A DNA stretch of 64,000 bases from Stegostoma tigrinum (taxonomy: Eukaryota), in the NCBI RefSeq assembly GCF_030684315.1, contig NC_081362.1:89111022-89175021 (forward strand). The letters are read 5' to 3'. Position 1 is the stretch's first letter. Every line of letters starts with the position of its first letter. The position numbers and the translations under genes were made by a program. Of this stretch, positions 11,301-53,561 are shown piece by piece. The notes under the pieces were generated by a model. The model searched no databases, had not been told where the DNA came from, and saw only the letters and a list, made by a program, of their open reading frames with translations.

Positions 11301-12207
11301 ATGAAATAATATCTTGTCTTAATTAGCATGTAATTACACATCTCCGTGGCCATTACACCCTGAGGTGGAGCTAGAGGTAGAGACACTACCATAAAACCTT
11401 CTGCTGTCTCTGAACGCACATTTAAAAAAAAATCAGTAAACACCCACACCTTTCACCTGCTTACCCTGGACCATCATTGATGTGATATTAGCATACCATT
11501 CTGGTGAAACCTCTTTTGAACCCACTCCATGGCCTTCACACCTTCCTTGAAGTGTGGTGCCCAGAATTGGGAAATATCTCTCCTGCTGAAACCGAGCCAG
11601 AGTTTTGGAAACATCATGAGTTGATCATCAAATCTGGCAAATTGCAAATGCGCACTTTGGAAAGTCATAATTGTGAAAGTTGCAGCCAGTTGCAAAACCT
11701 CCAATTTATTCATGTCCTGCCTTCCTGAGAAAGGAAAATGCAGGTTCCTCAAACGTGCCCCCAACTCATGATGGTTAGAATATCACAACCAGACATCTCC
11801 CACCACCAAATCATCTCTTGCAATAGTAAAAAAAAATCAGATGAAACTGGAGGCAATCAATAGTTCTCTAAACTATTTGCCTGTGACTGCTTTAGGCTAT
11901 TGAAACAGTTGTGAGATGCCTGCAGTTGGCACCCCCTTCTTGTTGGGTCTTTGGGTAGGTTTACAAGAAGAGGTGAGGGCAGCCATGCGAGTCTGTTGTG
12001 CTTAATAGTATTAAATGAAAGATTAACCATTATTACACTTCCTTGGAGGAAGTATGTTCTTGAGTATGAGAAGTATTTTATTATGTGATGGTAAGATAAC
12101 AGTTTCTGGTTAACAACATTAACGCTAGGTAAGAGATAGTAACTAGGTCAAGGCTACGTGGCTGTAGAAGGCAGAAGTAATGACAAACTAGAACCAACTG
12201 AACTGAG

Positions 12208-13351
12208 AGATAGCAAGAACTGCAGATGCTGGAATCTGTGTCAAAATAGTGTGGAGCTGGAGGAACACAGCTGGTCAAGCAACATCAGAGTCGACGTTTC
12301 GGGTCAGATCCTTCATTTGGGTTGGGGAGGGGGCAGGGAGATGGGAAATAAATAGTGGGGGGGGGGGGTTTCTGGTGGTAATTGAATGCAGGTAGGGGAT
12401 AGTAAGGATTGGTTAGTGGGAAGGTGGGCCAGATAGGTGTGGAAGATGGACAAGGTTGTCCGGTCAAGGAGGTGGGGATGAGAAGGAGGGTTGCACATAG
12501 GACGAGGCTGGGTTTGGGGCGATTTTGAAACTGGTGAATTGAAGTAGAAGGATCATAACCAGCACACCTTATACCACGGGCAATCCGATCCCACCATCAT
12601 CTGCCTTTCATATGGACTGCTCACTCTACAACTCCCTCATCTGTTCCACACTGCCCGCTAGCCTCACAACTCCTGGCACCTTTCACTGCAACCGCAGGAG
12701 GTGCTGCACCTGCCCGTACACCTCTTCCCCTCTTGTTCCGTCCAAGGCCCAAGACAAACTTTCCATATCTGACAGGGTTCATCTGTTCTGGTCTATCCGT
12801 TGCTCCCGACGTGGCCTCATTTACATAGATGAGACCAAGCGCAGACTTGGTGATCGATTTGCGGAGCATCTATGCTCTGTAAGCCATAATCAACAACACC
12901 GTCCAGTTTTCAAACATTTTAACTCCCCCTCCCACTCCCTGGGTGACATGTCCATCCTGGGCCTCCACCAGTGTCACAGTAATGCCACATGCAAATTGGA
13001 GGAGCAACACCTCATTCTGCCTCGGGAGCCTACAGCCACATGACCTGAACCTAGAATTCACCAGTTTCGAAATCTCCCCACCCCTAGCCCTCATCCCATG
13101 TCCAATCCTCCCCCTCATTCCTGCCTTCTTGACCTGACACAATCTGTCCTCTGTCTTCCACGACTATCTGCCGTACCCTTCCCATTGACCAATCTCCCCA
13201 GTCCCTACCTGCATTCACCTATATCCCCCATCTACCTTCCGCCATCTCACCCCTCCTGTCTCTCTATTTCCCAGCTCCCTTTCTCCCTCCCCAGTTCTGA
13301 AGAAGGGTCCCGACTCGAAACATCAACTTTCCAGCTCTATGCTGTATTGAC
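12208..13351. mobile_element. Head-to-head Neptune-like Penelope insertion (minus 3' terminus about 12208-12545; plus GIY-YIG/3' part about 12560-13350)
   Basis: Plus ORF GTFHCNRRRCCTCP...LIYIDETKRRLGDRFAEHL; the minus arm carries the same family terminus; degenerate flanking repeats 12193-12207 / 13352-13366 (13/15). Confidence 0.8.
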
Positions 13352-13951
13352 ACCAACTATACTGAGTTCCTCTTCCCAGAGACCGTCCTTGATGTAACAG
13401 TATGGGGAGGTATTCCAGAGCTTTCAAGTTAGCTCTTTCAGGCCAAGTAGCTTATTCAACAAAAATCAATTCTGGAGATGACATGGGCCAAACTTTATCT
13501 ATAACGATAGCATTTCATTGGCCCCATTGAAAAACATACCTGCCAATTCACTTTGAAAATAAACTCTGAGCCTGTGAGGTGGTTTAACAAACTACCCTCG
13601 AGTCAAAGATGATCTGTCATAATCATCAGGGAAGCTATGTATGTGCCAAACCTTTGACCTTGAAGTTACCCAAAAGAGGACTAACGGCTGTTTGCTTCTC
13701 TGATGGTTCAAGGATATTTAGGGTCATTTCTATTGCTTCTGTGCTGTCCAAGGTTCAGTGATCTCTGTGGCTGTACATTAGTAATATCTACATTAACTGT
13801 ACACTGCACTGAATTCTTCCCACAGTCTTCTTGTATGATTTCACACTTCAGGAAAAAAAATGATGGATCATAGCACCAATAAAAAAAAATCAATGTGTAA
13901 TAGACCAGGAGCTGAGTTGCCCAAGTGAGTGAGTGGGACAGCCTAGAAAGG

Positions 13952-14105
13952 TGATAATTGGAACTGCAGATGCTGGAGAATCCAAGATAACAAAGTGTGG
14001 AGCTGGATGAACACACACAGATGAAGGGTCTCGGCCCAAAACGTCAGCTTTTGTGCTCCTGAGATGCTGCTTGGCCTGCTGTGTTCATCCAGCTCCACAC
14101 TTTGT
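13952..14105. mobile_element. Miniature palindromic Penelope-terminus element (about 155 bp)
   Basis: acaaagtgtggagctggatgaacac ... gtgttcatccagctccacactttgt inverted; flanked by agcctagaaagg / agtctagaaagg. Confidence 0.85.
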
Positions 14106-14449
14106 AGTCTAGAAAGGGTTCTTGTTTTGATCCCAACAATGTTGTTGAGTTTGGTCTTGGCTGCGACAACAGCTCAATTATTATAATCATCTCAATATTT
14201 TTGAGCAGAGTGGGATATTTGTGAGGATTCCTTTTCCTGATCACCATCCTTTAACTTTGTTGTATTGGGACAGTGGATCAACAGGAGCAGCCAGAACATG
14301 CCGAGTGCAGGCTCTTGGCTAGAATGAACATTCACTCAAGGCCACCAGGAGAGAGGAGGGAAGTAGGGAGAGAGAGGCAGAGGTACATTCATGACAGGTT
14401 CATAATTCTCCTCATGAATCAAAGTCTTTTTTTCTCCCTCCAAACACAG

Positions 14450-14590
14450 GATGACAACACGAGCCACAGTGATCCCCAGCAAGATCCTATCTCTTTAGCT
14501 GTCGAAATGGCTGCAGTCAATCACACCATCCTGGCATTAGCCAGACAAGGGGGGAGTGAAATAAAGAGAGAGGTGATTGAAGATGATTGA
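14450..14590 (+). CDS. HMBOX1: HMBOX1 last coding exon
   Basis: acacag|GAT GAC... translates DDNTSHSDPQQDPISLAVEMAAVNHTILALARQGGSEIKREVIEDD then TGA; spliced CDS totals 1230 nt in frame. Confidence 0.95.
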   Translation, partial: DDNTSHSDPQQDPISLAVEMAAVNHTILALARQGGSEIKREVIEDD

Positions 14591-24407: not shown

Positions 24408-24994
24408 GCTCATTGTTAAGCCAGAAGTAACAAGTAGTATTATACAGACTAAAATTTAAGTACATGAGACATGCAGATGACAAAGCACCTTTGAATTTCA
24501 TCGAGCCTTTAAAAATATTTAAAATTAAACATTTAAAATTTTTGCATTGTGCTTTTATATACAAACCCAGCACATACACAGGTGGCCAACCAGCTACTGA
24601 ACCTTATGCATACTTCCCACTAGACTGCAAAAAATTAGTGTTAAATTCAAACCTTTCCTGGGCTTGACAACCTCTGAGCTTCAGTGTTTATTCATACATA
24701 AAATGAGAATCAGTAGTTTAGAATTTACGTTTCAAAAATGGTCATTGTATGATTAAATCCAAGAGGTATGATACATCTCTGCTCCAGAGAGCTGCAAACA
24801 TTATAAATAAATGATTGTATTGTAATTGTTGAGGCAAGTCAGTTGCCACAAATATTATTGCAATTGCATACCTATTTTGTTGTACATTTCCCATAACTCC
24901 CATATTTATAAAATAGAATTTGAGATAGAAAAATCCAATGTTTGGACCCAGTACAGTCAAAATCACAGGATGTCAGCTCAGAACAAAAACCCAA

Positions 24995-25115
24995 TTCTGA
25001 AGGAGGGTCTAGGCCCAAAACATCAGCTCCTCTGATGCTACTTGGCCTGCTGTGTTCATCCAGCTCTCCACCCGGTTATCCCAGATTCTCCAGCATCTGC
25101 AGTTCCTATTATCTC
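24995..25115 (+). mobile_element. Solo Neptune-like Penelope terminus
   Basis: tctgaaggagggtctaggcccaaaacatcagc...ccagcatctgcagttcctattatctc matches the family end. Confidence 0.85.
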
Positions 25116-26229
25116 CGAAACTTACTTTGTAACAAGTGTTCCCAACTGCACTGACACCATGTAGGAACATCAGCCTTTTCTCTTCTTACAGTCAGAATCA
25201 TCCAGCCTTGAACCAGATGTAAACACTGAACTCATCCTTTGACTCTGTTTATTTCTACTGCTGACCTATTCTGAGACAGATTTGGAATTTAAAAATTAGA
25301 CAAATGTTTGAACTGGCCCTGAAGGAATATATGGGGTATTTCTGTAGCTTGAGAGCTAGTAACATTAATTCTGATAAATATTTGACATAATGACTATGTT
25401 AAAAGGTATCTAAACACTTATCATTGTATTGTCCCAAATATTTTTAAATTTTTACATAACATTTACAACATTAATTCAACTTAAAATACTCAATTACACT
25501 GCATGTTAACCTCAAAGTCATCATTTCAAACCTTAATTTTATGAAATTAAGTTCTCTTTCAAGTAAAGGAATTAAAGTCAGAGTTTACATGTGAGAGATA
25601 GGTGTGACATTGGTCAAGTTAATTACTACCAACCATTCACACACTTGTAATACAAACAGGACAAACCTTGGCAGGAGAGCATAGAAAACCACACTCACTT
25701 GAGAAAGCAAACAGTAAACCTGGGTTAAAGTTGTTGAGTTTGTGTGCTCTGTTCTTTTCATCATCTCCACTGTTCCTGGACATTCTAGTCAAACATGTCA
25801 ATGTTTGGTTAATGAATTTTAAAAAATGAGAGTTACCAGTTTGTTTTTCAGCCACAATCTGCTGGAAGTTAACATGATCAATAATTTATCTAACTGTTGT
25901 GGAACTGTACCTTTGTGTGGCATTTTTGAAACATGTACAGGCAGCAAATTTGAGTTGTACTACCATGAGTGTGTTGCAAAAGGAACTCTGACCCTAAAGT
26001 ACATGTGGAACTTCATTCCAGGGCAAATCACTTTTAACGTGCACCAAAACTCACTTTAAAGCAGCAGAGAGCAGTAATATAAACTCAACAGACGAGGCTG
26101 TAATGGTGTAAAACTGGCAGTGTTTTCCACGACTGCTATTGTTATGGTCTACTTACAGAAAGAGTGCAGAATCGCACAATGTACATTAGGCATCAAAATC
26201 ACTTTCAACCAGTGCAGAGGTTAAGGGGA

Positions 26230-31888: not shown

Positions 31889-32499
31889 CTGAAACATAAC
31901 AAAAAGTGTTTTTAAGATCTTTAAACTTAAAGCAAATTGTGAAAACATTCAGATAGTAAGCTAACACCCCGGAACTAGCCCCATGAAACGATGAGATAGG
32001 CAAGATTTAACTTTCTCCATTACAATGGCTTCACTAAAGGGTTACAGGGAAAAGGCAGGAATGTGGACATGAGGAATGCCAGATCAGCCATGACCCTTTT
32101 GAATCATGAAACAGAATCAAGGGGATCAACAACCTACTCCTGTTTATGGTTTTATGGTCTAAAAGATGACGAAGAGAAAGAGGTGACTCTTTAAACCGCA
32201 CCGTTACTTCAAAACAGCAAAATACCTTGGAGCTTTTCTCCACAAGGTACTCTTACACAATAAAACAATCGGCCGAGGACAGCACTGGTCCAAAACAGGT
32301 CACAGCCACAATCTTCCAGAACAGGATGAAAGGAATGTAAGAACAGAAGTACACCTGATCTTTTATTTCAACTCTAGGGAGAAAACACAAAAAAGGGACT
32401 AACGTCTCACAATGGAGCTAATCCCAAGATTTAAAACAAATCATTCTTCCAGCTCTTTGGATTTCTCTCATGGTTGATTCAAAGCAAGACAGTGTACAA

Positions 32500-32817
32500 T
32501 CCGAGGACAAGCCAAACAGAGACATGCACGAGAATTCCTATAAGCATGGCATTCCAACCGGAACTCCATCAACCAACACATTGATTTGGAGCCAATCTAC
32601 CATCCCGTGAGAAAAAGAACAGGAAATGACATCACCAACCCAAGGAAACCTAACCAGATAAATAGAAAGCGGGACATAACACCAGCGCTTCGTCGGAGAC
32701 TCACTGATGATGTTACCTAGAATGGCGACGAAACGTCTGAAAACTAACCTTCCAGCTCAGCGAGCAAACTCACATCCAGAACCTCAATCTGGGCTACAAA
32801 TCTTCTCAAAACTCGCT
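32500..32817 (+). mobile_element. Poseidon-like Penelope 3' terminal fragment
   Basis: Near-identical to the 3' end of 57372-59150; flanked by agtgtacaa at 32491-32499 and 32818-32826. Confidence 0.85.
32701..32740 (+). ncRNA. Minimal type I hammerhead ribozyme motif (Poseidon-like terminus)
   Basis: TCA-CTGATGA-T-GTTACC tagaat GGCGAC-GAAAC-GTC-TGA: catalytic core, stem II, and TCA/TGA stem I. Confidence 0.7.
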
Positions 32818-33611
32818 AGTGTACAAAAATTGCAAAACCATTAAGTTGAAGAGGTCTCTTTTCATCTTCACCCATGGGAAGAATGATAGGTCAAATTTCC
32901 TTACGCAATGGAACGTTGGAACAATGGGACAGTTTGTAGAGAATGGCTGAGACAGAGATCATTGAGCATTCTCAGGGAGAAATGGATAAATATTTGAAGC
33001 AAAAGGAAGATAAAGGATTATAGGTGAAGGCAAAGAGTGGACATTTTAAAGATAATAAACTACAGTAACTCCTCCTGTGCTCTGAGTCTGTCTAACTTCT
33101 CATTTCAGCTTTGACATCACCCAAAGTTAGTACGGTCCACGCTGAAAGTACAGAACATCAGTCAATACTGCATTTGCCATACAGAACTAGAGTTGTTTAT
33201 GAACTTACATTGGAGCAGACATGAATTTTTTGTATACTGAGTAATAGGCAAAACTACAGCGAATAAGATACAACAAAATAATTTTATAGAAATCCTGTTG
33301 GCCCATGCTCAATGTGACCATCTGTTCGTTACCTGGTTGCACAAAGTTCAAACAGCATTTTATGACATAGCTGAGGCAAATTTATTTATTTAATTATTAA
33401 GGACACCAAATAAACAAATGAAAATAACAAATCAGAAAGAAGAACAAAAGAAAAGCAAACTTGCCACTCCTGTGGGAACCTGTAACTCAAGATCTTAAGA
33501 AAACAACTATGAACTAAATGAGAAAAGGTAAAGCGACGTTTCAAACGCATTAACAACATTCTTTTACGCATAAAATCAAAAATCAATTGAAGGGATTTCT
33601 CAGTCTCTTAC

Positions 33612-34824
33612 CTGCTGGTACATTCAGCTCAATTCCAATCCAAATTCCATCAGCAAACTCTGTGGGTCCTATATACCTGACTGTACCAGTCTTGTTTGTA
33701 CCAAATGAGACGTATTCCCCTTCTTTTAGCCACTCAGGAACAATGTCAACTGCTTCCTCAGAATCTGAAATAATTTCAAGTTTTTCATTTGATAACTCAA
33801 GATCTTCATCATATCTTGTATCTGCAGTCACAGATCTCTCAAAGTTGTCACTTGGCTCTGGTATGTAACCTGCAGCCAGACCGGAGACCCCAGACCCCCA
33901 TTCCTCTGTTGACCACTGCTCTTCTTTATCTTCACAATCTTGCCAAGAATTTTCATCCCCCAAGATGCCCGTGAATGACTTCAACTCGGACGTCCTCACC
34001 TTTTGTATTTTGAAAGGGTTAGATGCTGAGGTTATGGACGGAGTTGTGTCAGATTTTGACTCAGACTTGGAGACAGTTAGTGCTGAGGTGGACTTCTGTG
34101 CCAGCAACAAGTCCTCCAGCTCATCAAGTTGGAGGGAATGCAGGACAACTTTCTGGTTGGTCACATCAGGGCCGACTGATTTGTCCACTGGTGCTTCAGC
34201 TGTCTGAGAGGTAGAAAAGCTGTTTTTAGTGTCAACTGATGCAGATATTTCCATGGCCTCTGCTACCACTGTCTCATGTGCAGGCTCTGCTGTTACCTCA
34301 GCATTTGCTGATCGATTCTCAACTCTTGCACAATCCTTTCCCACATCCTTGCTTGGGCTTTGCAGTTGGAATTGACCTTTGCTGGACACCTGTGGAGCAC
34401 CATTTTTTACTTGATTGATTTGATGCTGCATGTCCAGAGATCCATTAGCCATATGTCCAGCAAAGCAGGAACCAGATTTCACATTGGCATTCAGTTTGGC
34501 TGAACCCTCACTGCTGGATGTCCTTTGACTTTGTAACTGGGCAGAAGCGTCCCCATCTGTAGTGGCCCAACTTAGCGGAGGTGTGCCAATGTCTCCACTT
34601 GACACCATTGCAGTTTCCGAAAGGGTAGCTGTAGAAACGCTGTGGGAGAAATACCCACTTGAAGCTTCACTTGAAGGACTCTGAGGGTCTCCTTGGGACT
34701 CATGGCCAGCTGCATCCACAGACTCTATCTTTGATGGAGTATTTGGAATGACTGAGCCCATCACTGTGGGATGGGTGGGTTGTGTCATGGTCACTGGTGC
34801 AGAAGGGGCTTTTTCTTGTTGAGC
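33612..34824 (-). CDS. KIF13B: KIF13B large exon (Ser/Pro-rich linker and CAP-Gly N-terminal half)
   Basis: SPSSEASSGYFSHSVSTATLS, PFKIQKVRTSELKSF, VPEWLKEGEYV...GTVRYIGPTEFADGIWIGIEL; cag acceptor, gtaag donor. Confidence 0.95.
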
Positions 34825-35815
34825 CTGATGAAAATGTACAGAAACACCACATTTTGGCAAAGCAAGTTATGTTAGCACATTTTACCCCTTCTCCTCATTA
34901 CCCCCATCCCACAACCACTCCAAACAACACGTACTTTGCAAAATCAAATACAAGTCATGCTGAAATCATGCAACAATCTCAAATACATTCCTCATCATCC
35001 TCCTAGCAGAAGGAAGAGACCTCAGTGGGCAAACAATGAAGGTACCAAGGGATGTGCTAAAGAGAGATGAGCAAAACTGAAGAGAAAAACATCTCGAAAA
35101 GGAAATGATTTCTCAGTCCATCTTTGACCTAATAAGCACTATATCTTATACATCACTAAACATGGATGTCATGAAAATTAGTTTTTCAAAAATGTATAAG
35201 TTTATTTAATGGAAATTAAGCTACATTTATGTACCAACTTATTTTGAGACACTGGAACATCCCAGAAGTGCTTCACAATAAATGTTTGTTTGAAGTGCAG
35301 TCAAATGTTCTTATGCAGCATACTTAGCTGCCAATTATCCATAACCAGGTCCATATGCAAGGTCAATAAAGAAGATTGAATGAAAAGACAGTGATTTAAT
35401 AAATGCTTTTAAATCCTTCCTTTATCTTACAGCACAGCATTTTCCTCAAGCCTGCATCGCAGTTGCTACTCTCAGTCCTCACCATTCTGAATCATCTCGT
35501 ATCACTCCATTCCATCATTGCAAAGCTCTCTTCCGTATCCATCTGACTTTATAATCTCTTCCACAATCTTTAAAAACATTCTTAAAAGAAAAATCTCTTT
35601 ACCACTCTCCTTTCAACTGAATATGCTGTCCACCTTTTATAGCACTCCCCAGATGGCAATATTGTAACTACTTAAGCTGTTGAATGCACAGTTGCACACA
35701 CATGGGACGTTTGGAAATAATTTTGATTCTTCTGCAGTAAATGTGTTATGAGATAACTAACCAGACAGGTATGAATTCTAATACTTAGCTTCTTGAAACT
35801 GGAGATTATACTTAC

Positions 35816-36512: not shown

Positions 36513-36636
36513 AGAGAGATAACACGGTGTAGAGCTGGATGAACATAGCAGGCCAAGCAGCATCACAGGAGCAGGAAAGCTGATGTTTTGGGTCTGGACC
36601 CTTCTTCAGAAATGGTGGAGGGGAAGGGGAGTCTGA

Positions 36637-36668
<32 letters not shown>

Positions 36669-36868
36669 CGGGGGGAAGGTGGATGGAAGATGGATAAAGG
36701 AGCAGATAGGTGGACAGGAGATAGACAGGTCAAACAGGTAGGGATGGAGCCAGTAAAGGTGAGTGTAGGTGGGGAGTTAGGATGGGGACAGGTCAGTCCA
36801 GGGAGGACAGACAGGTCAAGGGGATGGGATGAGGCTGGTAGCTAGGAGATTGGGGTGGGGCTTGAGGA
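36513..36868 (-). mobile_element. Neptune-like Penelope 3' terminus including a (GA)n tract at 36642-36668
   Basis: gagctggatgaacatagcaggccaagcagcatc... similar to 42655-42970. Confidence 0.8.
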
Positions 36869-38686: not shown

Positions 38687-41502
38687 CTGGTAAGAGATGG
38701 TAGACAATGATGCAGATATTGAAAAATGAATTTTATCACTGTATTATATTTTTTACCTTGTTATTCTGCACTGCCCCTTATTGCTGTACAAGAGGAAAGA
38801 TGAAATGCAGAGTTTTCTCCACAAACTGCACACTCCACTCTTTGATCATTTACTTTTCCCTGAACATCTCTCCTTTTCCCTCTTCCTTGGCAAAAGCACT
38901 GACACAAGACCCAAGTTTTATTTCCGAGTTCAAATCCACATAAGGTCTCCATTGTAATTACAAGTTCCTCTCCAGACCATACACTAACCCGACTTGGAAC
39001 TATATCACCATTCCTTCACTGGGTCAAAATGCCTGAACTCCCTTCCCGATAGGACCCTGGGCACACCAAGCCACAAGGACTATTAGGAGTTAAGGCAACA
39101 GCTCTTAAATAGCCAAGCAAGCAATTTGGTTTAAGGCAATTATGGATTAGAAACAAATCTTGGGTTTGCAAAGTACACCCAAAGTTCTTCAGTGAATGAA
39201 TAAAAATAAAGTCAGAATTGCCAAACCTGGCAAGAACGATAGGTTTTCATTACAATCATAGCTTCAGTCACACATTTCTAGCATTCAATTATAATTTTAT
39301 AAAAACTTTTAAAATTAATTGATATGTTTTAATCAATTGAATTTAAATTCTATCGGTTGCCATGTGGGATTTGAATCTACAGTCCCAGAGTTTAAGCGTT
39401 ACAACACCCATCTCTCAGTTCACCTTCAAGGAATTTCAAAATTATTCAGCAATGCTGCTCACTTTGTCAGAGCTTTGTAGAATATTTGTGCCATCAGTAA
39501 AGATAATTCTGTAAAACAAGTAGCATTGTGACTTTATCATTACCATTTTCATGCATTAGCCCACATTTCACTAATACACTGCAGAGTAACCATAACCTAC
39601 ATGGCATAGCAAAGGAATACATTCATCCATTTACATTTCCTGAAATATCTACTGGGAACCATTCTGAATGTGAGCCAGATTTCCAAATTCATCTTGGTGC
39701 TTGAAAACATGGAGGCTCTGGGTCACACAACTAATCACCTTCCAAACAGGTCAAACTTGATGCTGCCTTTGGGGAATACATGCACAATGGAATGGCCCTT
39801 CTAATTCATACACTGAAACTGACTGGAGTTTGTTATTTTAGCAGATCTCACATTTCATTAAATATAACAACATGCTCTATAGTGAGTGAATCAGAAGTGT
39901 GGAAGAGGGATTAAGAACAATCCAGACACAGAGTGTTACAAGTCCAATCAGAACATGCACTAATGTTTGCCCCGACACTGGAATGAAAGCACATGTAGAC
40001 GGAAATTTAAAATGGCACCTGTTGTTAGAATTTCTTACCATTATTCATCATAGAAAGAAGGGCAGTGCAAATGTGGGGGGGGGGGGAGAAGATGAATTAT
40101 GAGTTAAATCACAGGAATCCTTTTTAGAATTGGTAGCAGTTTCATTTAGTAGAAAACTACTGTTATGCAATCAAATTTTACACTGAAAATGTGAACCCTT
40201 TGTATTATAATTAGATTTTGCGAGTGGAGGAGCTGTAAAGAGATAGCGGAGTTGTGCTACTGGACAGTCATTATCATTTGTAGCTGTTTTCATCATTGAG
40301 TAAAGAATTTCGAACAAGCAGTTTAATAAGCTTTAGCAGGCAACACTGTAAATGACTGTGAACACTGGAAACCACATTAACAAAGATAGGAGCTAGAGAG
40401 AGGGAAATAAAAAGGACTTAGCCCTGGTAGAAAATCATTAGATGACACTACCATTGTTAATATTTCTATCATCTGAACTACTGAAATTTCACAGTCAATT
40501 GATTTTTGAAATGTGTTTTGTCAATAACGCAGACTGCACTTTTTCTCCAAACCATATTTCCAAATGCAACCCATTAAGTCTTGACTTCGATTAGCCCAGG
40601 CAGGGTCTCTAAAATAGATGGCTCCCAATCTGCATCATTTCTAACTCTCATGTAAGAGTAAGAGTCATACTTCATTTTGTTTTAATCGCTCGGTTGATCT
40701 TACCTGGCTGAATGCTTCTCAAAAAAGTAACATTATAGAAAAAAATGAACAAACCATGAAAAAGCATACTGTAAAAATTAGTTTGTTAGTTATCTACTGA
40801 CAACATACTGTTGATCAAACAAAAAAAGTGCTTGGAATCTCCAGAGCACTGCATATTGTGCACAGTGGCAGTCTAAAGTGAACTGTGCATTTTTAGCGAA
40901 TATAAATTAAGTGATAGGAAGCAAAGATTTTACAAGACTCAAGCAGCAGCTGGACATTTTTCTGGAGAATGATAGTCTTTTAAAAGATTATAGACGCATT
41001 TAATTCAATAAAACCCGACTACAGTTGAAGTATTAGGCAGATTACAGAAATTAAAGTGAAATTGATTCATTATTCATCAAGTCTTTCTGGAATTTTCAAT
41101 CCATTTTGCTCAAATAATATTCAGTTAAAAACCACACCAGCAGGTTATTTAAAATCACAACAAGCCACCAGCTTTCTACAAGAACAAATGCAATAAAAAT
41201 TTAAAACGTACCGGAAGCAGCCACAGATAGATCAAGGAAGTCACTTTCCGCTCCTAATTATTTAAATGCCTGCTGATTAAAACTGCATTACTAAACTAAC
41301 AAGTGATCCCCAAATGTTGAAAATTACAGGTTCTTTCGAACAGTAAGATTTTGGGATCGGGATTAAATATCTCAGAGGGAATGCGTTCTCTCAAAGGTCA
41401 GGTCAAACTTGCAAGCTAACATCAATGAACTTTTCTTCAAGAATTAAAGTTCAAAAAAAAGTATGCCGTTTAAAAGTATGAAACAATAACACGGGCATCT
41501 GA

Positions 41503-41693
41503 GATAATGGGAGCTGCAGATGCTGGAGAATCCAAGATAACAAAAGTGTGGAGCTGGATGAACACAGCAGGCCAAGCAGCATCTCAGGAGCACAAAAGCT
41601 GACGTTTCGGGCCGAGACCCTTCAGGGGACTAGGCCCGAAACGTCAGCTTTTGTGCTTGGCCTGCTGTGTTCATCCAGCTCCACACTTCGTTT
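41503..41693. mobile_element. Miniature palindromic Penelope-terminus element (about 190 bp)
   Basis: cacaaaagctgacgtttcgggcc ... ggcccgaaacgtcagcttttgtg inverted; flanks acacgggcatctga / acactggcgtctga (12/14). Confidence 0.85.
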
Positions 41694-42165
41694 ACACTGG
41701 CGTCTGAAATACTGTGATTTTAATATCCCTCTAAGTCAGACTTCTGTTTTCAAATTTTCTCGCACACGCTCCTCATAAAAGAGAAAACTATCCCATGTCA
41801 TAGAGGTCTACACCACAGGAAAAAGCCCGTCAGGCTATCAAATCTGCACCAGTCAAAAGCCCACCTAACTATTTTAGTCTCATTTTCCAGCACTTGGCCA
41901 ACTGCCTTGTATGTCTTCGCACTGCAAGTGTACAACTAAATGCTTAAATGTTATGAGGATTTCTACTTCGACCATCCTTACTTGCAATGAGTTCCGGGTT
42001 CCAACCACCCACTGGGTAAAAAACATTTTCCTCTCACTCCTTCTGAATGACCTGCCCCTAACCTGAGGTCTATGCCGCGTAGTCCCTCCAACAGGAGGGA
42101 GATTTCTTTTGGCCTACCCTATTTGTGTCCCTCATGATCTAATATATCCTTGTACTACTTCTCAC

Positions 42166-42274
42166 CTGCAGCTTGTGGCATGGAATGCCTGGACACCGGG
42201 GAATGGAACGGAGGAGTCTTCTTGTTTGACTGCAGTGCAGCTGTCGAAATGTCCTGCTGACTCTCCCATCGACT
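42166..42274 (-). CDS. KIF13B: KIF13B coding exon
   Basis: gggcag| then SRWESQQDISTAALQSNKKTPPFHSPVSRHSMPQAA G|gtgag. Confidence 0.88.
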
Positions 42275-42752
42275 CTGCCCAGAGGCAGGGGAGGGGGGAA
42301 ATAAACAAAGAAATCCAGTTTAACTTAAGTTTTTGTGATAGCTGCACTTCAGACTGTGGGTACTGCAAGTTCTTTTAAAATTACACCAGTTTTTTTCTCT
42401 CATTTAAGTCTCTGAGAAACACATACAAAATTAGGAGGGAAGTTCCATAACTCATGCCTGCAAGATGCAAAAAAGGTCAACTCCACTCCCTACTTACACA
42501 TGCATTTGCTTAAGATTGTTTGGGTAGAAAGAGACATGATTCAGTTTCATACTTGCCTTTAATTAGGATATCAACTCTCAACTAAAAGCATATACTTAAG
42601 TTCTAACACTGCTATTCTAGGTTATCGGTTGGGCCAATATGGGTCTCAATGTCTCAGAGATAATGGGAACTGCAGATGCTGGAGAATCCAAGATAATGAA
42701 ATGTGAGGCTGGATGAACACAGCAGGCCAAGCAGCATCTCAGGAGCACAAAA

Positions 42753-42785
42753 GCTGACGTTTCGGGCCTAGACCCTTCATCAGAG
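42753..42785 (-). ncRNA. Minimal hammerhead ribozyme motif (Neptune-like terminus), intact core
   Basis: Minus strand CT-CTGATGA-A-GGGT ctag GCCC-GAAAC-GTC-AG. Confidence 0.65.
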
Positions 42786-43820
42786 AGGGGGATGGGGAGA
42801 GGGTTCTGGAATAAATAGGGAGAGAGGGGGACACGGACCGAAGATGGAGAGAAAACAAGATAGGTGGAGAGAGTATAGGTGGGGAGGTAGGGAGGGGATA
42901 GGTCAGTCCAGGGAAGACGGACAGGTCAAGGAGGTGGGATGAGGTTAGTAGGTAGATGGGGGTGCGGCTTGGGGTGGGAGGAAGGGATGGGTGAGAGGAA
43001 GAACAGGTTAGGGAGGCAGAGACAGGTTGGACTGGTTTTGGGATGCAGTGGGTGGAGGGGAAGAGCTGGGCTGGTTGTGTGGTGCAGTGGGGGGAGGGGG
43101 ACGAACTGGGCTGGTTTAGGGATGCGGTGGGGGAAGGGGAGATTTTGAAGCTGGTGAAGTCCACATTGATACCATTAGGCTGCAGGGTTCCCAAGTGGAA
43201 TATGAGTTGATGTTCCTGCAACCTTCGGGTGGCATCATTGTGGCACTGCAGGAGGCCCATGATGGACATGTCATCTAAAGAATGGGAGGGGGAGTGGAAA
43301 TGGTTTGCGACTGGGAGGTACAGTTGTTTGTTGTGAACTGAGCGGAGGTGTTCTGCAAAGCGGTCCCCAAGCCTCCGCTTGGTTTCCCCATTGTGGAGGA
43401 AGCCACACTGGGTACAGTGGATGCAGTATACCACATTGGCAGATGTGCAGGTGAACCTCTGCTTATTGTGGAATGTCATCTTGGGGCCTGGGATAGGGGT
43501 GAGGGAGGTGGTGTGGGGGCAAGTGTAGCATTTCCTGCGGTTGCAGGGGAAGGTGCCGGGTGTGGTGGGGTTGGAGAGCAGCGTGGAGCGAACAAGGGAG
43601 TCACGGAGAGAGTGGTCTCTCCGGAAAGCAGACAGGGGTGGGGATGGAAAAATGTCTTGGGTGGTGGGGTCGGATTGTAGATGGCGGAAGTGTCGGAGGA
43701 TGATGCGTTGTATCCGGAGGTTGGTGGGGTGGTGTGTGAGAACGAGGGGGATCCTCGTAGGGCGGTTGTGGCGGGGGCGGGGTGTGAGGGATGTGTTGCG
43801 GGAAATACAGCAGACGCGGT

Positions 43821-45152
43821 CTCAACCGCCTAGCCGAACTCATCCTCACCCTCAACAACTTCTCTTTTGACTCCTCCCACTTCCTACAGATTAAGGGGGT
43901 GGCCATGGGCACCCGCATGGGCCCCAGCTATGCCTGCCTCTTTGTAGGTTACGTGGAACAGTCCCTCTTCCGCACCTACACAGGCCCCAAACCCCACCTC
44001 TTCCTCCGGTACATTGATGACTGTATCGGCGCCGCCTCTTGCTCCCCAGAGGAGCTCGAACAATTCATCCACTTCACCAACACCTTCCACCCCAACCTTC
44101 AGTTCACCTGGGCCATCTCCAGCACATCCCTCACCTTCCTGGACCTCTCAGTCTCCATCTCAGGCAAACAGCTTGTAACTGATGTCCATTTCAAGCTCAC
44201 CGACTCCCACAGCTACCTAGAATACACCTCCTCCCACCCACCCTCCTGCAAAAATTCCATCCCCTATTCCCAATTCCTCCGCCTCCGCCCCCACGATAAG
44301 ACATTCCACTCCCGCACATCCCAGATGTCCAAGTTCTTCAAGGACCGCAACTTTCCCCCCCCAGTGATCGAGAACGCCCTCAACCGCGTCTCCCGTATTT
44401 CCCGCAACACATCCCTCACACCCCGCCCCCGCCACAACCGCCCAAAGAGGATCCCCCTCATTCTCACACACCACACCAACCTCCGGATACAACGCATCAT
44501 CCTCCGACACTTCCGCCATTTACAATCCGACCCCACCACCCAAGACATTTTTCCATCCCCATCCCTGTCTGCTTTCCGGAGAGACCACTCTCTCCGTGAC
44601 TCCCTTGTTCGCTCCACACTGCCCTCCAACCCCACCACACTCGGCACCTTCCCCTGCGACCGCAGGAAATGCTACACTTGCCCCCACACCTCCTCCCTCA
44701 CCCCTATCCCAGGCCCCAAGATGACATTCCACATTAAGCAGAGGTTCACCTGCACATCTGCCAATGTGGTATACTGCATCCACTGTACCCGGTGTGGCTT
44801 CCTCCACATTGGGGAAACCAAGCGGAGGCTTGGGGACCGCTTTGCAGAACACCTCCGCTCAGTTCGCAACAAACAACTGCACCTCCCAGTCGCAAACCAT
44901 TTCCACTCCCCCTCCCATTCTTTAGATGACATGTCCATCATGGGCCTCCTGCAGTGCCACAATGATGCCACCCGAAGGTTGCAGGAACAGCACCTCATAT
45001 TCCACCTGGGAACCCTGCAGCCTAATGGTATCAATGTGGACTTCACCAGTTTCAAAATCTCCCCTTCCCCCACCGCATCCCTAAACCAGCCCAGCTCTTC
45101 CCCTCCACCCACTGCATCCCAAATCCAGTCCAACCTGTCTCTGCCTCCCTAA
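43821..45152 (+). pseudogene. 5'-truncated but uninterrupted PLE ORF: reverse transcriptase, Cys-rich linker and GIY-YIG endonuclease
   Basis: GVAMGTRMGPSYACLF, FLRYIDDCIG, FPCDRRKCYTCPH, NVVYCIHC..CGFLHIGETKRRLGDRFAEH; open to the stop at 45152; no native start. Confidence 0.9.
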
Positions 45153-45621
45153 CCTGTTCTTCCTCTCACCCATCCCTTCCTCCCACCCCAAGCCGCACCC
45201 CCATCTACCTACTAACCTCATCCCACCTCCTTGCCCTGTCCGTCTTCCCTGGACTGACTTATCCCCTCCCTACCTCCCCACCTACACTCTCTCCACCTAT
45301 CTTCTTTTCTCTCCATCTTCGGTCCGCCTCCACCTCTCTCCCTATTTATTCCAGAACCCTCACCCCATCCCCCTCTCTGATGAAGGGTCTAGGCCCGAAA
45401 TGTCAGCTTTTGTGCTCCTGAGATGCTGCTTGGCCTGCTGTGTTCATCCAGCCTCACATTTTATTATCTTGGGTCTCAATGTCTGCATACTTTACCAAAG
45501 ACTTTACAAGTTAAGCAAAACACTGCAACATCTTAATTAAGTGCAAAAAGAAAGTGATAATATTTTTGACTAATTCCAATTAATTTTAATTAAGTTCAGA
45601 AGATTGGCCCTTTATAGATAA

Positions 45622-45851
45622 CAAGTTATAGAGCTGGATGAACACAGCAGGCCAGGCAGCATCAGAGGAGCAGGAAAGTTGATGTTTCAGGTCAAGACCC
45701 TTTTTCAGAAATTTTTCAGAAATATTTCTGAAGAAGGGTCCAAACCCGAAACATCAGCTTTCCTGCTCCTCTGATGCTGCTTGGCCTGTTGTGTTCATCC
45801 AGCTCTATACCTTGTTATATCAGATTCTTCAGCATCAGCAGTTCCTACTAC
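45622..45851. mobile_element. Miniature palindromic Penelope-terminus element (about 230 bp)
   Basis: agagctggatgaacacagcaggcc...tcagaaat / atttctga...gtgttcatccagctct; flanks ccctttatagataa / ccctttagagataa. Confidence 0.85.
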
Positions 45852-46042
45852 CCCTTTAGAGATAAAAAATTTTCAATATTTTACAAGTTCTTTGACCATT
45901 AAATCTGGAGCTATAAATACAAAGAATGCAGGTAGGGATAAATGCCAGGCAAAGTTCTTCTCACTAATTAATTCTTAATTCTCTGCCAAAGTATAAGTTA
46001 CAAAGTTATTTGGAATCTAAACACAGAAAAACAAATATCAAG

Positions 46043-46135
46043 ATAATAAAATGTGAGGCTGGATGAACACAGCAGGCCAAGCAGCATCTCAGGAGCACAA
46101 AAGCTGACGTTTCGGGCCTAGACCCTTCATCAGAG
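46043..46135 (-). mobile_element. 93-bp Penelope terminus consisting of the hammerhead motif (46103-46135) and downstream tail
   Basis: Matches 42693-42785 except for one base; exact 14-bp repeat aaacaaatatcaag at 46029-46042 and 46136-46149. Confidence 0.88.
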
Positions 46136-46229
46136 AAACAAATATCAAGTTCATTTTTCAAATCAGCAGCCCACTTTGGTTACCTAAACTGCATCCAGCA
46201 GGTAAATAATGATCTCTTGGAATGATAGA

Positions 46230-46979: not shown

Positions 46980-47033
46980 CTTGTTGCGTTCAAGGCTTGA
47001 TCTTGCATTGAGGTCATGACGGCTTCCGGATAA
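46980..47033 (-). CDS. KIF13B: KIF13B coding exon (54 nt)
   Basis: aaaaag| then LSGSRHDLNARSSLERNK |gtaac; phase 0/0. Confidence 0.85.
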
Positions 47034-49138: not shown

Positions 49139-49216
49139 CCGATTAACATTCGGAGAGCTGATGCACCTTCTGGTCAATTTACGCTTTGTATTTAATTGTT
49201 CTTTTACTGCAACTTC
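49139..49216 (-). CDS. KIF13B: KIF13B coding exon (78 nt)
   Basis: gaacag| then EVAVKEQLNTKRKLTRRCISSPNVNR |gtatga; phase 0/0. Confidence 0.9.
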
Positions 49217-51071
49217 CTGTTCACAAAACACAGCAGAAAAGATACAACACAACATACAATCAGGACAAGGACAAAACCAGACAAAACAACAGAAAGAGAA
49301 ATCAGCAGTTCTACAGTGCAAAAGGAACAGTTCATTACTTTGGAAGAAAGCAAGCAAACAGCCTTTGAATAGGTTAAATGAAAGTAAAATACTGCAAATG
49401 TTGGAGATCTGAAATAAAACAGTGTTGCAGAAACTCAGCAGTCTGGCAGAAACGGTCGGGACCTTTGTTGTTATTTCCAATTGTGACAGATCTTTTGCCA
49501 ATTCCTCTTCTCCTCCAGTAGCAACATCTTGCTGGAGGACAATCCAATGAATCCTAGTTGGCTTCTCAACTTAAGTCCCTTAACCATTTATATCTGCAGA
49601 CAGGGAGAATTGAGGGTTAAGGAGAACAGCGCCAGGTGGAGCCAATGCTGCTCACATGCAAATACATTCGCCAGTCAGAGGATGCTGAGCATCAAGAATA
49701 AGTTAGAGGTCCGGCAGTCCCGCCAGGTTGTTCCACTTTTCAATCACGTCATGCTGACCTATATCTTAATTTTATTTACTCCCCTTTCTTCCATATTGTT
49801 TAATACCCTTGTCTCTTTTTTCTGAAACTTATCAACTGCTTCAGCCCATAGAGCAACTTCCCCTCGGTCTATCTTTCAATCCACAACTTGAACTCGTCCA
49901 ACTCTACTTCCTCACAAAAAAAACTTTCAAAACTTACTCCATTCAACCAGCTCACTTAAACAATTTTGTTCAGCTACTTGTATTACTATTGTTCAGAGCC
50001 AAGTGCAGTTCCTGATTTTTAAATCTATATTTTGGACACTACTCCACCTGACATTGTGGCATTCTCAGTCTTTCGACTAGTAATCCAGAGACCCAGGCTA
50101 ATGTTCTGGGGACTTGTACTGAAATCCCAACAAAATAGATGGTTAAAATTTGATTCAATGAAAATCTGGAGACAGAAGTTAATCTAACTGCAACTATGTC
50201 ACCAATTGACTTTTTGTAAAAACAGAACTGGTTCACTAACGTCCTTCAGGGGAGAAAATCTGCCATCTTTACCAGGCATCATCTACACATGACATAAATG
50301 CTGGCCCAGCCAGTGATGCTCACATCCCATGTATGAATAAAATCACAGGCTCTGTTTACCAAAGGTTTTAACTGCCATTTAAGGAAAACTACCATTCATG
50401 GGATGTGGGTGTCACTGGCTAGACCAGTATTTATTGTCCATCCCTAATTGCCCAGAGGGCAGTCAACCACCTTGCTATGGGTCTGGAGTCACAAGTAAAC
50501 CATACCAAGCAAGGATAGCAGTTTCCTTCCCTACAGGACATCAGTGAACCAGGTGGGTTCTTCCAACAACAGATTCAGTTTTGATATCATGATTACACTC
50601 TTGACTCGCTACTTTTATTGAATTCAAATTCCACCATCTGCCATGGCAGGAATTGAAACCAGGTCCCCAGAGGATTACCTGGGTTTCTGGATTAATGTTC
50701 TAGTGATAACAGCACCAGGCTCCCTGTGCCAGACAAACATGAATATCATGACTCAGACTTGTTCTCGTCAAATCTATTTAAATACATAAGACCCTGTGAA
50801 GACTTTGATTTTTGTACTGTGGAAAAACTTCCAACAACTTCAGTTCTAGCTTCACACTTCGTTACGTTCCTTCAGATCCTGTTTCTCTCAAGATGTTAAC
50901 TTTTTTTTTATGATGGCACTGTGTGAAGCATCGACGTGTTCATTAGTGTCTGTCAACTTGCTGTTGTTGTAGATTAGCTTGTCTTTTTCCATGATAATGT
51001 AAAGATGGGATATTATTATCTTTGTGCAGTGTAAGCAGTTGCAAATGAAGAAAGAACAGCCGAGTACTGAA

Positions 51072-52585
51072 GAGATAATGGGAACTGCAGATGCTGGAGA
51101 ATTCCAAGATAATAAAAATGTGAGGCTGGATGAACACAGCAGGCCAAGCAGCATCTCAGGAGCACAAAAGCTGACATTTCGGGTCTAGACCTTTCATCAG
51201 AGTGGGGGATGGGGAGAGGGTTCTGGAGTAAATAGGGAGAGGGGGGAGGCGGACCGAAGATGGAGAGAAAAGAAGATAGATGGAGAGGAGAGTATAGGTG
51301 GGGAGGTAGGGAGGGGATAGGTCAGTCCAGGGAAGACGGACAGGTCAAGGAGGCGGGATGAGGTTAGTAGGTAGGAAATGGAGGTGGGGCTTGAGATGGG
51401 AGGAAGGGATGGGTGAGAGGAAGAACAGGTTAGGGAGGCAGAGACAGGCTGGACTGGTTTTGGGATGCAGCGGGGGGAGGGGATGAGCTGGGCTGGTTGT
51501 GGGATGCGGTGGGGGAAGGGGAGATTTTGAAGCTGGTGAAGTCCACATTGATACCATTGGGCTGCAGGGTTCCCAAGCGGAATATGAGTTGCTGTTCCTG
51601 CAACCTTTGGGTGGCATCCTTGTGGCACTGCAGGAGGCCCATGATGGACATGTCGTCTGAAGAATGGGAGGGGGAGTTAAAATGGTTTGCGACTGGGAGG
51701 TGCAGTTGTTTATTGCAACCGAGGGGAGGTGTTCTGCAAAGCAGTCCCCAGGCCTCCGCTTGGTTTCCCCAATGTAGAGGAAGCCACATCGGGTACAATG
51801 GATACAGTATACCACATTGGCGGATGTGCAGGTGAACCTCTGCTTAATATGGAATGTCATCTTGGGGCCTGGGATGGGGGTGAGGGAGGTGGTGTGGAGG
51901 CAAGTCTGTAGCACTTCCTGCGGTTGCAGGGGAAGGTGCCGGGTGTGGTGGGGTTGGAAGGCAGTGTGGAGCAAACAAGGGAGTCACGGAGAGTGGTCTC
52001 TCCGGAAGGCAGGCAAGGGTGGGGATGGAAAAATGTCATGGGTGGTGGGGTCGGATTGTAGATGGCGGAAGTGTCGGAGGGGTGGGAACCCTGCAGCCCA
52101 ATGGTATCAATGTGGACTTCACCAGCTTCAAAATCTCCCCTTCCCCCACTGCATCACACAACCAGCCCAGCTCATCCCCTCCCCCCACTGCATCCCAAAA
52201 CCAGTCCAGCCTGTCTCTGCCTCCCTAACTTGTTCTTCCTCTCACCCATCCCGTCCTCCCATCTCAAGCCGCACCTCCATTTCCTACCTACTAACCTCAT
52301 CCCGCCTCCTTGACCTGTCCATCTTCCCTGGACTGACCTATCCCCTCCCTACCTCCCCACCTATACTCTCCTCTCGAACTATCTTCTTTTCTCTCCATCT
52401 TCGGTCCGCCTCCCCCTCTCTCCCTATTTATTCCAGAACCCTCTCCCCATCCCCCTCTCTGATGAAGGGTCTAGGCCCAAAACGTCAGCTTTTGTGCTCC
52501 TGAGATGCCGCTTGGCCTGCTGTGTTCATCCAGCTCCACACTTTGTTATCTTGGATTCTCCAGCATCTGCAGTTCCCATTATCTC
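51072..52585. mobile_element. Head-to-head Neptune-like Penelope element (minus arm about 51072-52080; plus arm about 52081-52585)
   Basis: Both ends terminate in gagataatgggaactgcagatgctggag / ctccagcatctgcagttcccattatctc; the minus arm encodes a frameshifted GIY-YIG. Confidence 0.92.
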
Positions 52586-52905
52586 AGAATCCGAAGGAAA
52601 ATTGGTGAAGGTCTAACTGTTGAAAATAGAATAAGAACACCAATCCAGACAGATTGCTGATTGACTCCATTAGAAATTGCAACAACAGCTTGCTCAGACA
52701 ACAACAGTAAGCAGGAGCTTAAAAGTTCAGTGGAGCTTAACAATGTACAGAACAAAATATACATTCCAGGTTTCGTTTTTATTAACAGACCGCTTGCACT
52801 GATGTCAAAGCTAAGTTCACATCCATTAAAACATCTACAAGTTAATACAACTGCAAGTTAAGTGGCAGATGACATTCCTCAAAAATCACATTTTCATTGT
52901 GACAA

Positions 52906-53561
52906 TATTATGGCTAAGGGGTGTATCCTGTACTTTTTTTTAAACATGAAGAAAGGTTTAGACAGAGCTGGCAAGCAGTCTGTTCAAGGGAGCCTGTGAG
53001 GCGTTAGGCTTTTTTTTAAAAAACAGTTAGAACAAGAGAAGCAGCAAGGTCAAGCTCCCTCAGAACCAAGATTTTTAGTGATAATGGGAACTGCAGATGC
53101 TGGAGAATCCAAGATAATAAAATTATTCATCCAGCCTCACATTTTTTTATCCAAGATTTTTAGTGTTAGCTTTCTGCAATTGCTGAGGTCGTGAAGTTGA
53201 GTGTGGAAGCACATATTCCTCTCTGTACTACAGCTGAAAGGTGGTCTGTTCTTCCTGCTACTAGAATTGCATGTGAGACAATCTATTTAACTAAATTCGA
53301 TTTTGCCAACAAAGGATGTTACCGTACCAAAACAGTTAATTAGCAGATAATGTATTATTTTGTTAAGCAATTCAATCAAGTTACAGTTAAGTCAGTTATT
53401 TCATTTTTATTTTGACTGTATTTTAACTGTGGTGCAAAAATAAGTGATTTTCTTAGAGTAGTTTGGCCAATCAAATTGCATCTGGAATGCAATACCTTAC
53501 AGTTGGGGTCTAGGCTATAATCTTAATATATTGAGGGGTTTGTCCAGTCTCGTCCATATCA
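52906..53561. mobile_element. Possible solo LTR
   Basis: Ends tattatgg ... ccatatca resemble TGTTATGG...CCATAACA LTR termini; no target-site duplication found. Confidence 0.3.
53081..53150. mobile_element. About 70-bp chimeric Penelope-terminus insertion
   Basis: Two opposite-orientation terminus pieces; exact 15-bp repeat ccaagatttttagtg at 53066-53080 and 53151-53165. Confidence 0.85.

What the first reader, a model, noticed from the sequence alone, without database searches (positions are those of the whole stretch)
12193..53165. Size series of palindromic, direct-repeat-flanked Penelope-terminus elements (retro-derived MITE-like family)
Seen: at least seven insertions have the Neptune-like 3' terminus at both ends in opposite orientation: about 2.8 kb (42655), 1.5 kb (51072), 1.15 kb (12208), 230 bp (45622), 190 bp (41503), 155 bp (13952) and 70 bp (53081). 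Six have 12-15 bp flanking direct repeats, exact at 42640/45470 and 53066/53151. The internal junction differs in each copy, so they are not copies of one master element. Established: PLEs can carry inverted terminal segments. Inference: here this is a common integration outcome, as if both nicked target strands prime reverse transcription on the element's 3' end and the two cDNAs are then joined.
Basis: partly seen in the sequence, partly recalled or inferred. Interest (0 to 1): 0.75.

Follow-up and report, generated by a model that had tools for sequence, protein, structure and literature searches.

The report
Mirror-image Penelope retrotransposon insertions
Seven insertions here are two truncated copies of a Penelope-like retrotransposon joined head to head, six of them inside one target-site duplication, a layout already described for these elements and likely made when both cut DNA strands each start a copy.

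Summary
Seven insertions (72 to 2817 bp) consist of two 5'-truncated copies of a Neptune-type Penelope-like element (PLE), with 3' ends pointing outward. Six sit in a 12-15 bp target-site duplication (TSD), two exact. All seven seams differ. That is the known PLE 'tail'. Inverted arms, tail and TSD together are published PLE anatomy, so this is not a new MITE-like family. Assembly fold-back is unlikely (arms 76-97% identical, TSDs present). Independent insertions are unlikely for most copies (arms share source variants, 16:0:1 informative columns). The best mechanism is inferred: priming on both nicked target strands at the two published RT start sites, then end-joining. It fits in vitro data on a lizard PLE, and the tail lies on the shorter arm in 4 of 6, which simple fold-back does not predict. 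One modest extra: 6 of 18 arms stop within 12 nt at the hammerhead core, giving a roughly 200 bp size class that mimics a MITE. No genome was available, so all counts come from 64 kb. Interest 0.3.

The parts
12206..13351 (.). E1: old head-to-head insertion. Left arm 12206-12540 (minus-strand copy, with tail), 5 nt seam, right arm 12546-13351 (plus-strand copy with decayed endonuclease region, no tail). Arms about 76% identical.
12193..13366 (.). E1 TSD 12193-12207 / 13352-13366, 13 of 15 identical
13953..14105 (.). E2: left arm 63 nt with tail, 4 nt seam (CACA), right arm 86 nt without tail; TSD 13940-13951 / 14106-14117, 11 of 12
41501..41693 (.). E3: hammerhead-centred palindrome. Left arm 124 nt with tail, right arm 68 nt without tail and with a 14 nt deletion; TSD 41489-41502 / 41694-41707, 12 of 14
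42656..43820 (-). E4 left arm, 1165 nt, with tail; open frame 42739-43821 encoding the linker and GIY-YIG part; hammerhead motif 42783-42756
43821..43829 (.). E4 seam, 9 nt: an exact inverted copy of the element sequence at the left arm's breakpoint (the same 9 nt stand at 44379-44387). It puts N where all 8 aligned homologues have L.
43830..45472 (+). E4 right arm, 1643 nt, no tail: C-terminal half of RT (YIDD), CX4CxxC linker, GIY-YIG, pyrimidine-rich UTR, hammerhead motif 45377-45404. Arms 97.1% identical over 1090 columns.
42640..45484 (.). E4 TSD 42640-42654 / 45470-45484, 15 of 15; 3 nt overlap with the element end on the right
45615..45853 (.). E5: hammerhead-centred palindrome of a second subfamily. 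Left arm without tail, 11 nt tandem duplication at the centre, right arm with tail; both arms stop at the same element position. TSD 45608-45621 / 45852-45865, 13 of 14, overlapping the left element end by 6 nt.
51071..52585 (.). E6: left arm 1010 nt, 2 nt seam, right arm 503 nt. Tail on both arms, no TSD. Arms 96% identical and share UTR variants, but carry different terminal variants.
53080..53151 (.). E7: left arm 44 nt with tail, 2 nt seam inside a 5 bp micro-hairpin, right arm 26 nt without tail; TSD 53066-53080 / 53151-53165, 15 of 15
46038..46137 (-). Control: single-arm 5'-truncated copy of the same young subfamily, no tail, exact 14 bp TSD 46029-46042 / 46136-46149
24994..25116 (+). 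Control: single-arm copy with tail, no TSD found
36514..36867 (-). Control: single-arm copy without tail, no TSD found
6745..7800 (-). Control: older, longer single-arm copy of a further subfamily, no TSD found

Best explanation
These are head-to-head pairs of 5'-truncated Neptune-type Penelope-like retrotransposon copies, six of seven inside one target-site duplication, each likely made in a single integration in which both nicked target strands prime reverse transcription. Shown by the sequence: both outer ends are element 3' ends, set at one of two positions about 34 nt apart, directly against the TSD, in most cases with a few (1-6) shared bases; the ragged, variable junction is in the middle. 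Inferred steps: (1) the GIY-YIG endonuclease, probably as a dimer, nicks both strands 12-15 bp apart; (2) each free 3' end primes the RT on element RNA at either of the two internal start sites, which gives a tail on one arm, both or neither; (3) both cDNAs stop early, often at the hammerhead core; (4) host end-joining links the two cDNA ends, leaving 1-16 nt seams, some locally templated; (5) gap filling makes the TSD. If only one strand is extended, an ordinary single-arm copy with the same kind of TSD results (46038-46137). The small palindromes are likely dead-end products, not a self-propagating family.
For: Anatomy and TSD significance. The single-arm control has a 14 bp TSD, in the same range. 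Arms of one element share source variants: E4L+E4R versus E6L+E6R at 16 columns, the other two pairings at 0 and 1, in 513 columns; terminal variants agree between arms in 6 of 7. Among the 6 asymmetric elements the tail is on the arm with the shorter inner reach in 4 (E1, E2, E4, E7), about equal in 2 (E3, E5); a copy made by fold-back of one cDNA cannot hold sequence its template lacks. E6's arms differ at a linked terminal variant, each form matched by other copies in the window, as two templates would give. In run X12 (same species label as the best holder) the 15 joint rows shown (359 more not shown) leave the terminus at 52550-52552 (4 rows) or 52584-52585 (11 rows), so the two ends 34 nt apart recur at many loci. 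PMC11167929 (parts 1-3 of 4 read): a purified lizard PLE protein cleaves and extends both target strands, uses two RT start sites that delimit the tail, shows no start-site difference between strands, and is predicted to be a dimer. Of 80 related loci from metagenome contigs, 12 had the ORF end and 500 nt on both sides; 2 of these (L002, L018) have an inverted 3'-end arm at the truncated 5' end.
Against: Only 7 events; no genome was held. The tail-on-short-arm argument fails if the endonuclease trims one end of a double-stranded intermediate (suggested in PMC8557442) or if centres were later deleted asymmetrically. Micro-hairpins at the seams of E4 and E7, and the zero-loop centre of E5, are what the self-priming model of PMC3846280 also predicts; 2 of 6 seams with a stem of 5 bp or more against 7.1% in random seams is only suggestive. 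E6, the best two-template case, has no TSD and could be two insertions or a rearrangement. Shared variants between arms fit one template or gene conversion equally well. No TSD was found for L002 or L018 within 70 nt. The in vitro work is on a Poseidon-clade element and did not show joined products; the 3 Poseidon-like copies in this window are all single-armed. No empty site was read for any TSD-bearing element.
Confidence: 0.6

Rival explanations
1. Fold-back or self-priming: one template or cDNA end folds on itself and primes the mirror arm, and the endonuclease later resolves the intermediate, leaving the tail on one side (model of Arkhipova et al. 2013, with the resolution step suggested by Craig et al. 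2021).
For: PMC3846280 reads palindromes at inverted junctions as self-priming. Seam micro-hairpins in E4 and E7; both arms of E5 and nearly of E3 end at the same element position. Arms of an element share variants.
Against: Tail on the shorter arm in 4 of 6; the tail is explained in vitro by two RT start sites, not trimming; E6's arms carry different terminal variants; seams of E1, E3 and E6 have no stem of 5 bp or more, and E2's has a 12 nt loop.
Confidence: 0.24
2. The small members are remnants: long inverted insertions, or two nearby independent insertions, were later shortened by deletion through the unstable centre, and this produced the size series.
For: Long palindromes are prone to central deletion (own knowledge, no call). 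E6 has two tails, no TSD and discordant terminal variants. E3 and E1 arms carry internal deletions.
Against: One TSD encloses both arms in 6 of 7. The smallest element (E7) has an exact TSD like the largest, so size does not track age. Single-arm copies stop at the same inner position as palindrome arms (46038-46137), which points to truncation at insertion.
Confidence: 0.1
3. A non-autonomous palindromic family (MITE-like or retrozyme-like) that is copied as a unit from master loci.
For: A size class near 200-240 bp centred on the hammerhead (E3, E5), and clustering of inner ends. An unchecked AI note on another genome reports five such 200-215 bp elements.
Against: All 7 seams differ; E3 and E5 belong to different subfamilies; arms grade continuously into RT and GIY-YIG coding sequence; single-arm copies carry the same kind of TSD.
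Confidence: 0.04
4. Assembly or library fold-back artefacts.
For: Palindromes can arise in amplified or long-read libraries (own knowledge). No long reads were available, and no listed contig spanned a seam.
Against: Arms differ by 3-24% with indels and an excess of transitions (E4: 18 transitions, 8 CpG-type, 14 transversions in 1090 columns; E6: 14, 6, 6 in 502). Flanks are not mirrored, TSDs are present and the ends are unequal.
Confidence: 0.02

Closest known systems
Inverted-pLTR Penelope-like insertions with tail and TSD (Adineta vaga Pen2/Pen2a, PMC3846280; D. virilis Penelope, PMC2377424; general scheme in PMC8557442 Fig. 2)
   Same: An inverted 5'-truncated copy at the 5' end, head-to-head; 30-40 bp tail on one end; one TSD around the whole; variable arm size; short palindromes at some seams.
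   Different: Here both arms are truncated and no full-length ORF or direct pLTR tandem is present; sizes go down to 72 bp; TSDs are 12-15 bp against 8-10 bp in the rotifer examples; 7 of 11 local insertions are of this form.
PAc (Poseidon from Anolis carolinensis) in vitro system, PMC11167929
   Same: Two RT start sites delimiting the tail, a hammerhead just upstream, and cleavage plus extension of both target strands, which is the chemistry the model needs.
   Different: Poseidon clade, not Neptune-type; the paper does not show or discuss joined inverted products in the parts read.
L1 twin priming (recalled, no call)
   Same: Both target strands prime cDNA, the two cDNAs are joined by end-joining, and a TSD encloses an inverted structure.
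   Different: In L1 the second primer anneals internally, so the insert has one 3' end and an inverted upstream segment. Here both arms begin at the element's 3' start sites, so the terminus is duplicated.
MITEs
   Same: Short, non-coding, inverted ends, TSD, apparently high copy number.
   Different: No shared master sequence, ends derive from an RT-encoding element, ends are unequal, and single-arm siblings exist.
Animal non-LTR retrozymes (bioRxiv 10.64898/2026.07.22.740005, passages and abstract start seen)
   Same: Hammerhead-bearing, PLE-derived, non-coding.
   Different: Retrozymes are tandem arrays; these are inverted pairs with unique seams.

Membership tests
EN+ Penelope-like elements | One ORF with RT followed by C-terminal GIY-YIG endonuclease | tested here: met
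   E4 right arm aligns over 97% of its length at 51-54% identity to full-length RT+GIY-YIG proteins. Pfam on the fragment itself is weak (RVT_1 E 0.02, GIY-YIG E 0.084); homologue P0007 passes both cut-offs.
EN+ Penelope-like elements | 5' truncation with direct or inverted pseudo-LTRs | tested here: met
   Inverted form in 7 insertions, all arms 5'-truncated. No direct tandem or full-length copy of this family in the window.
EN+ Penelope-like elements | Optional 30-40 bp tail at one end | tested here: met
   Second terminus at element positions 33-37; joints at 52550-52552 and 52584-52585 in run X12.
EN+ Penelope-like elements | Minimal hammerhead motif in the pLTR | tested here: met
   Core motif with stem II found at 7 termini of this family and conserved across 8 aligned copies, with no compensatory double changes. 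Rfam gives no match at gathering scores. Features match those listed in PMC4209133 (passages).
EN+ Penelope-like elements | Hammerhead self-cleavage activity | not testable with these tools
   Needs an in vitro assay.
Neptune clade | CX2-5CxxC linker between RT and endonuclease (shared with Nematis) | tested here: met
   CDRRKCYTC in E4, cysteines invariant in 9 of 9 aligned sequences; definition from PMC8557442.
Neptune clade | RT groups with named Neptune references in a tree | not tested
   No named references were returned by the tools. The host gene fragments look vertebrate (names recalled), and the passage found only Neptune and Poseidon in the vertebrates sampled.
MITE | Many copies share one internal sequence from a master element | tested here: not met
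   7 of 7 seams differ; four subfamilies are involved. Small sample.
MITE | Terminal inverted repeats derived from a DDE transposase element | tested here: not met
   Ends are contiguous with RT and GIY-YIG coding sequence.
L1-type twin-primed inversion | Single 3' end with an inverted, non-duplicated upstream segment (definition recalled) | tested here: not met
   Both arms start at the 3' terminus and overlap in sequence.
Non-LTR retrozymes | Tandem head-to-tail hammerhead units | tested here: not met
   All multi-unit copies in the window are inverted pairs.

The most novel reading that the evidence does not exclude
In this lineage double-strand priming is the majority integration route of the Neptune-type family. 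A dimeric RNP primes both target strands, at times on two different RNAs, and RT preferentially stops at the hammerhead core (an RNA 5' end or a structural block). That would mass-produce roughly 200 bp MITE mimics by retrotransposition alone, and the genome would hold a very large fossil record that settles how PLE inverted repeats and tails form.
Probability: 0.35. Interest if true: 0.55.

Novelty: new member of a known kind. Interest (0 to 1): 0.3.

Why it matters
How PLEs form inverted repeats is named as an open question in PMC8557442 (section read). A genome where most insertions of a family take this form, with readable TSDs and subfamily markers, lets fold-back and two-strand priming be told apart by counting. 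It also warns annotators: short TSD-flanked inverted repeats of this kind would be filed as MITEs although they derive from an RT-encoding element. The architecture itself is known, so the value is as a test bed, not a new system.

Tried and rejected
No genome is held, so the genome-wide tabulation could not be run. Exact-pattern scans for the terminus found 0 matches in viral, metagenome and prokaryote genome contigs. Rfam found nothing at gathering scores. Folding single termini as RNA gave no significant z-scores (0.41 to -0.91). Pfam at E 0.001 missed the E4 and E1 fragments. Laying contigs of 4 runs on 52530-55000 did not resolve the empty site or the seam of E7. One X12 contig runs 52563-53098, but has fewer than 31 letters inside E6 and inside E7, so I do not count it as bridging. 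Two contigs of a related species (X1, X3; about 91% alike) align from 52585 rightwards and continue 211-214 letters that do not fit the E6 terminus, which suggests E6 is absent there; the letters were not shown, so an empty site is not proven. Summed depth over the terminus is some 10^5 times that of the flanks, but the tool states this is no copy number. The difference between families (7 of 11 inverted against 0 of 3) is not significant (Fisher p 0.096). A spliced-RNA explanation for the stop cluster was considered and dropped: arms run past the candidate AG and do not continue into another exon. Earlier-findings searches by place and by sequence were empty. Paper searches for a PLE two-strand priming model and for shark Neptune elements returned no listing on the subject; the supplements of PMC11167929 held as text had none of four terms, and its figures are not held. 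Evgen'ev and Arkhipova 2005 and Arkhipova 2006 were not seen and may already contain such a model. Passages of PMC8969392, PMC9977147, PMC6431247 and PMC7599744 added nothing on mechanism.
Full report
Scope. No genome is held for this window, so all counts come from the 64 kb window, one read-laying run and 80 related loci from other organisms.

Observation. A BLAST of the terminus against the window gave 18 hits: seven convergent pairs and four single copies. The pairs are E1 12206-13351, E2 13953-14105, E3 41501-41693, E4 42656-45472, E5 45615-45853, E6 51071-52585 and E7 53080-53151. Direct repeats flank six: 15/15 (E4, E7), 13/15 (E1), 11/12 (E2), 13/14 (E5) and 12/14 by eye (E3). E6 has none. 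Random position pairs reach these scores in 0-0.17% of 2986 trials, and mismatched left/right pairings score at most 8. All seams differ and hold 1-16 nt not assigned to either arm.

What the element is. The long arm of E4 encodes the C-terminal half of an RT, a CX4CxxC linker and a GIY-YIG domain. It has 82 full-length homologues among 2492 candidates, the best at 51-54% identity. The linker marks the Neptune/Nematis type (PMC8557442, passages); I built no tree with named references. The ORF runs toward the terminus, so the pairs are head-to-head with 3' ends outward. About 100-130 nt inside the terminus lies a minimal hammerhead motif, as described for PLE pseudo-LTRs (PMC4209133, passages); Rfam does not score it.

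The unequal ends. In six of seven pairs one arm begins 33-37 nt (about 40 in E2 and E3) inside the other; E6 has two full ends. Single copies also begin at either point. In contigs of run X12 the 15 joint rows shown, of 374, leave the terminus at 52550-52552 or 52584-52585. This is the PLE tail. PMC3846280 (passages) describes an inverted pLTR, a 31 bp tail and a 9 bp TSD as the typical structure, and calls head-to-head the most frequent arrangement. [quoted passage not shown] PMC2377424 (passages) notes inverted terminal repeats that vary in size between copies. Related loci show the same layout: 2 of the 12 with enough flank (L002, L018), though without a detected TSD. The architecture is therefore known.

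One event or two. For E4 and E6, 16 informative columns group the arms by element, against 0 and 1 for the other groupings (513 columns). Terminal variants agree between arms in 6 of 7. With one TSD around both arms, this argues for single events. Arms differ by 3% (E4), 4% (E6), about 10% (E5) and 24% (E1), with indels and transition excess, which is ageing and not a fold-back artefact. E6 is an exception in three ways (two tails, no TSD, discordant terminal variant) and may be a two-template event with target loss or a rearrangement.

Mechanism. In an ordinary target-primed insertion the 3' junction is precise and the 5' junction ragged (own knowledge). Here both outer junctions are of the precise type, mostly with a few bases shared with the TSD (read by eye), and the ragged junction is central. 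PMC11167929 (parts 1-3 of 4) shows that a purified PLE protein cleaves and extends both strands and starts RT at two sites that delimit the tail, equally on both strands. Two-strand priming followed by end-joining accounts for the TSD, the tail asymmetry, the free arm lengths and the single-arm siblings (46038-46137, 14 bp TSD). Simple cDNA fold-back predicts that the shorter arm is a subset of the longer; instead the tail is on the shorter arm in E1, E2, E4 and E7, with E3 and E5 about equal. This argument is not airtight: end trimming or later asymmetric deletion could give the same picture. Seam features fit templated end-joining: a 9 nt inverted copy of the breakpoint sequence in E4, a 5 bp hairpin in E7, an 11 nt tandem duplication in E5, a 4 nt repeat in E2 (SD-MMEJ as in PMC5728401, abstract only). 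They fit self-priming as well, and 2 of 6 hairpins against a 7.1% null is weak. I give two-strand priming 0.6 and fold-back 0.24.

The size series. Inner ends are not evenly spread: 6 of 18 arms stop at element positions 120-131, at the hammerhead core (p about 0.004 under an assumed log-uniform null). Two such arms give about 200-240 bp, the size of E3 and E5 and of five elements in an unchecked AI note on another genome (a lead, not support). The stop may be an RNA 5' end or an RT block; neither was tested. Because E3 and E5 belong to different subfamilies and no seam is shared, a master palindrome is unlikely.

Limits. No empty site was read for a TSD-bearing element and no seam was spanned. 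The claim that a two-strand model for PLE inverted repeats is not in print rests only; two older subscription papers and the supplementary figures of PMC11167929 were not seen and may bear on it.

Verdict. Real, well-formed examples of known PLE anatomy at high local frequency (7 of 11), useful for testing an open mechanism. New member of a known kind; interest 0.3.

Noticed in passing
window 14020, 41624/41626, 45709/45726, 46137 (and by eye 24994): Inner ends of 6 of 18 arms fall at element positions 120-131, at the hammerhead core (122-128). Scan statistic p about 0.004 under a log-uniform null; the arms of E3 and E5 are not independent, and the locus-level figure (5 of 11, p 0.004) counts one copy placed by eye.
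   Followed up: partly
window 32499-32817, 57371-59150, 63621-63869: A second PLE family (Poseidon-like by lack of the cysteine linker, my reading) has 3 copies, all single-armed, with hammerhead motifs and exact TSDs of 9, 12 and 12 bp; the first carries a tail-like extension.
   Followed up: partly
window 51071-52585: E6 is the odd one: tail on both arms, no TSD, different terminal variants on its two arms, and apparently absent in the related species.
   Followed up: partly
window 1141-1752 (+) and 33583-34866 (-): Host exons with HNF-1_N and CAP-Gly Pfam matches; HMBOX1-like and KIF13B-like by recall. The insertions lie in non-coding DNA around them.
   Followed up: no
window 1-658: Old fragment of the same PLE family cut by the window start, with no terminus detected; left out of the counts.
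   Followed up: no
window 62893-63462: Open frame resembling the end of a CR1/L2-type LINE ORF2 (recalled; no Pfam match).
   Followed up: no
window 52585 and 53077 in run X12: Loose-end consensus next to the terminus across hundreds of other loci is A+T-rich (agreement only about 0.4), in line with A+T-rich targets; some contigs return from the terminus to 52534-52543, kind of joint not shown.
   Followed up: no
L025 1418-1699 and 4985-5131: A near full-length related element with a direct pLTR plus an adjacent inverted pLTR, the textbook Penelope arrangement; L012, L015, L019, L039, L042, L051, L061 and L074 also show inverted PLE pieces at or near the truncated end.
   Followed up: partly
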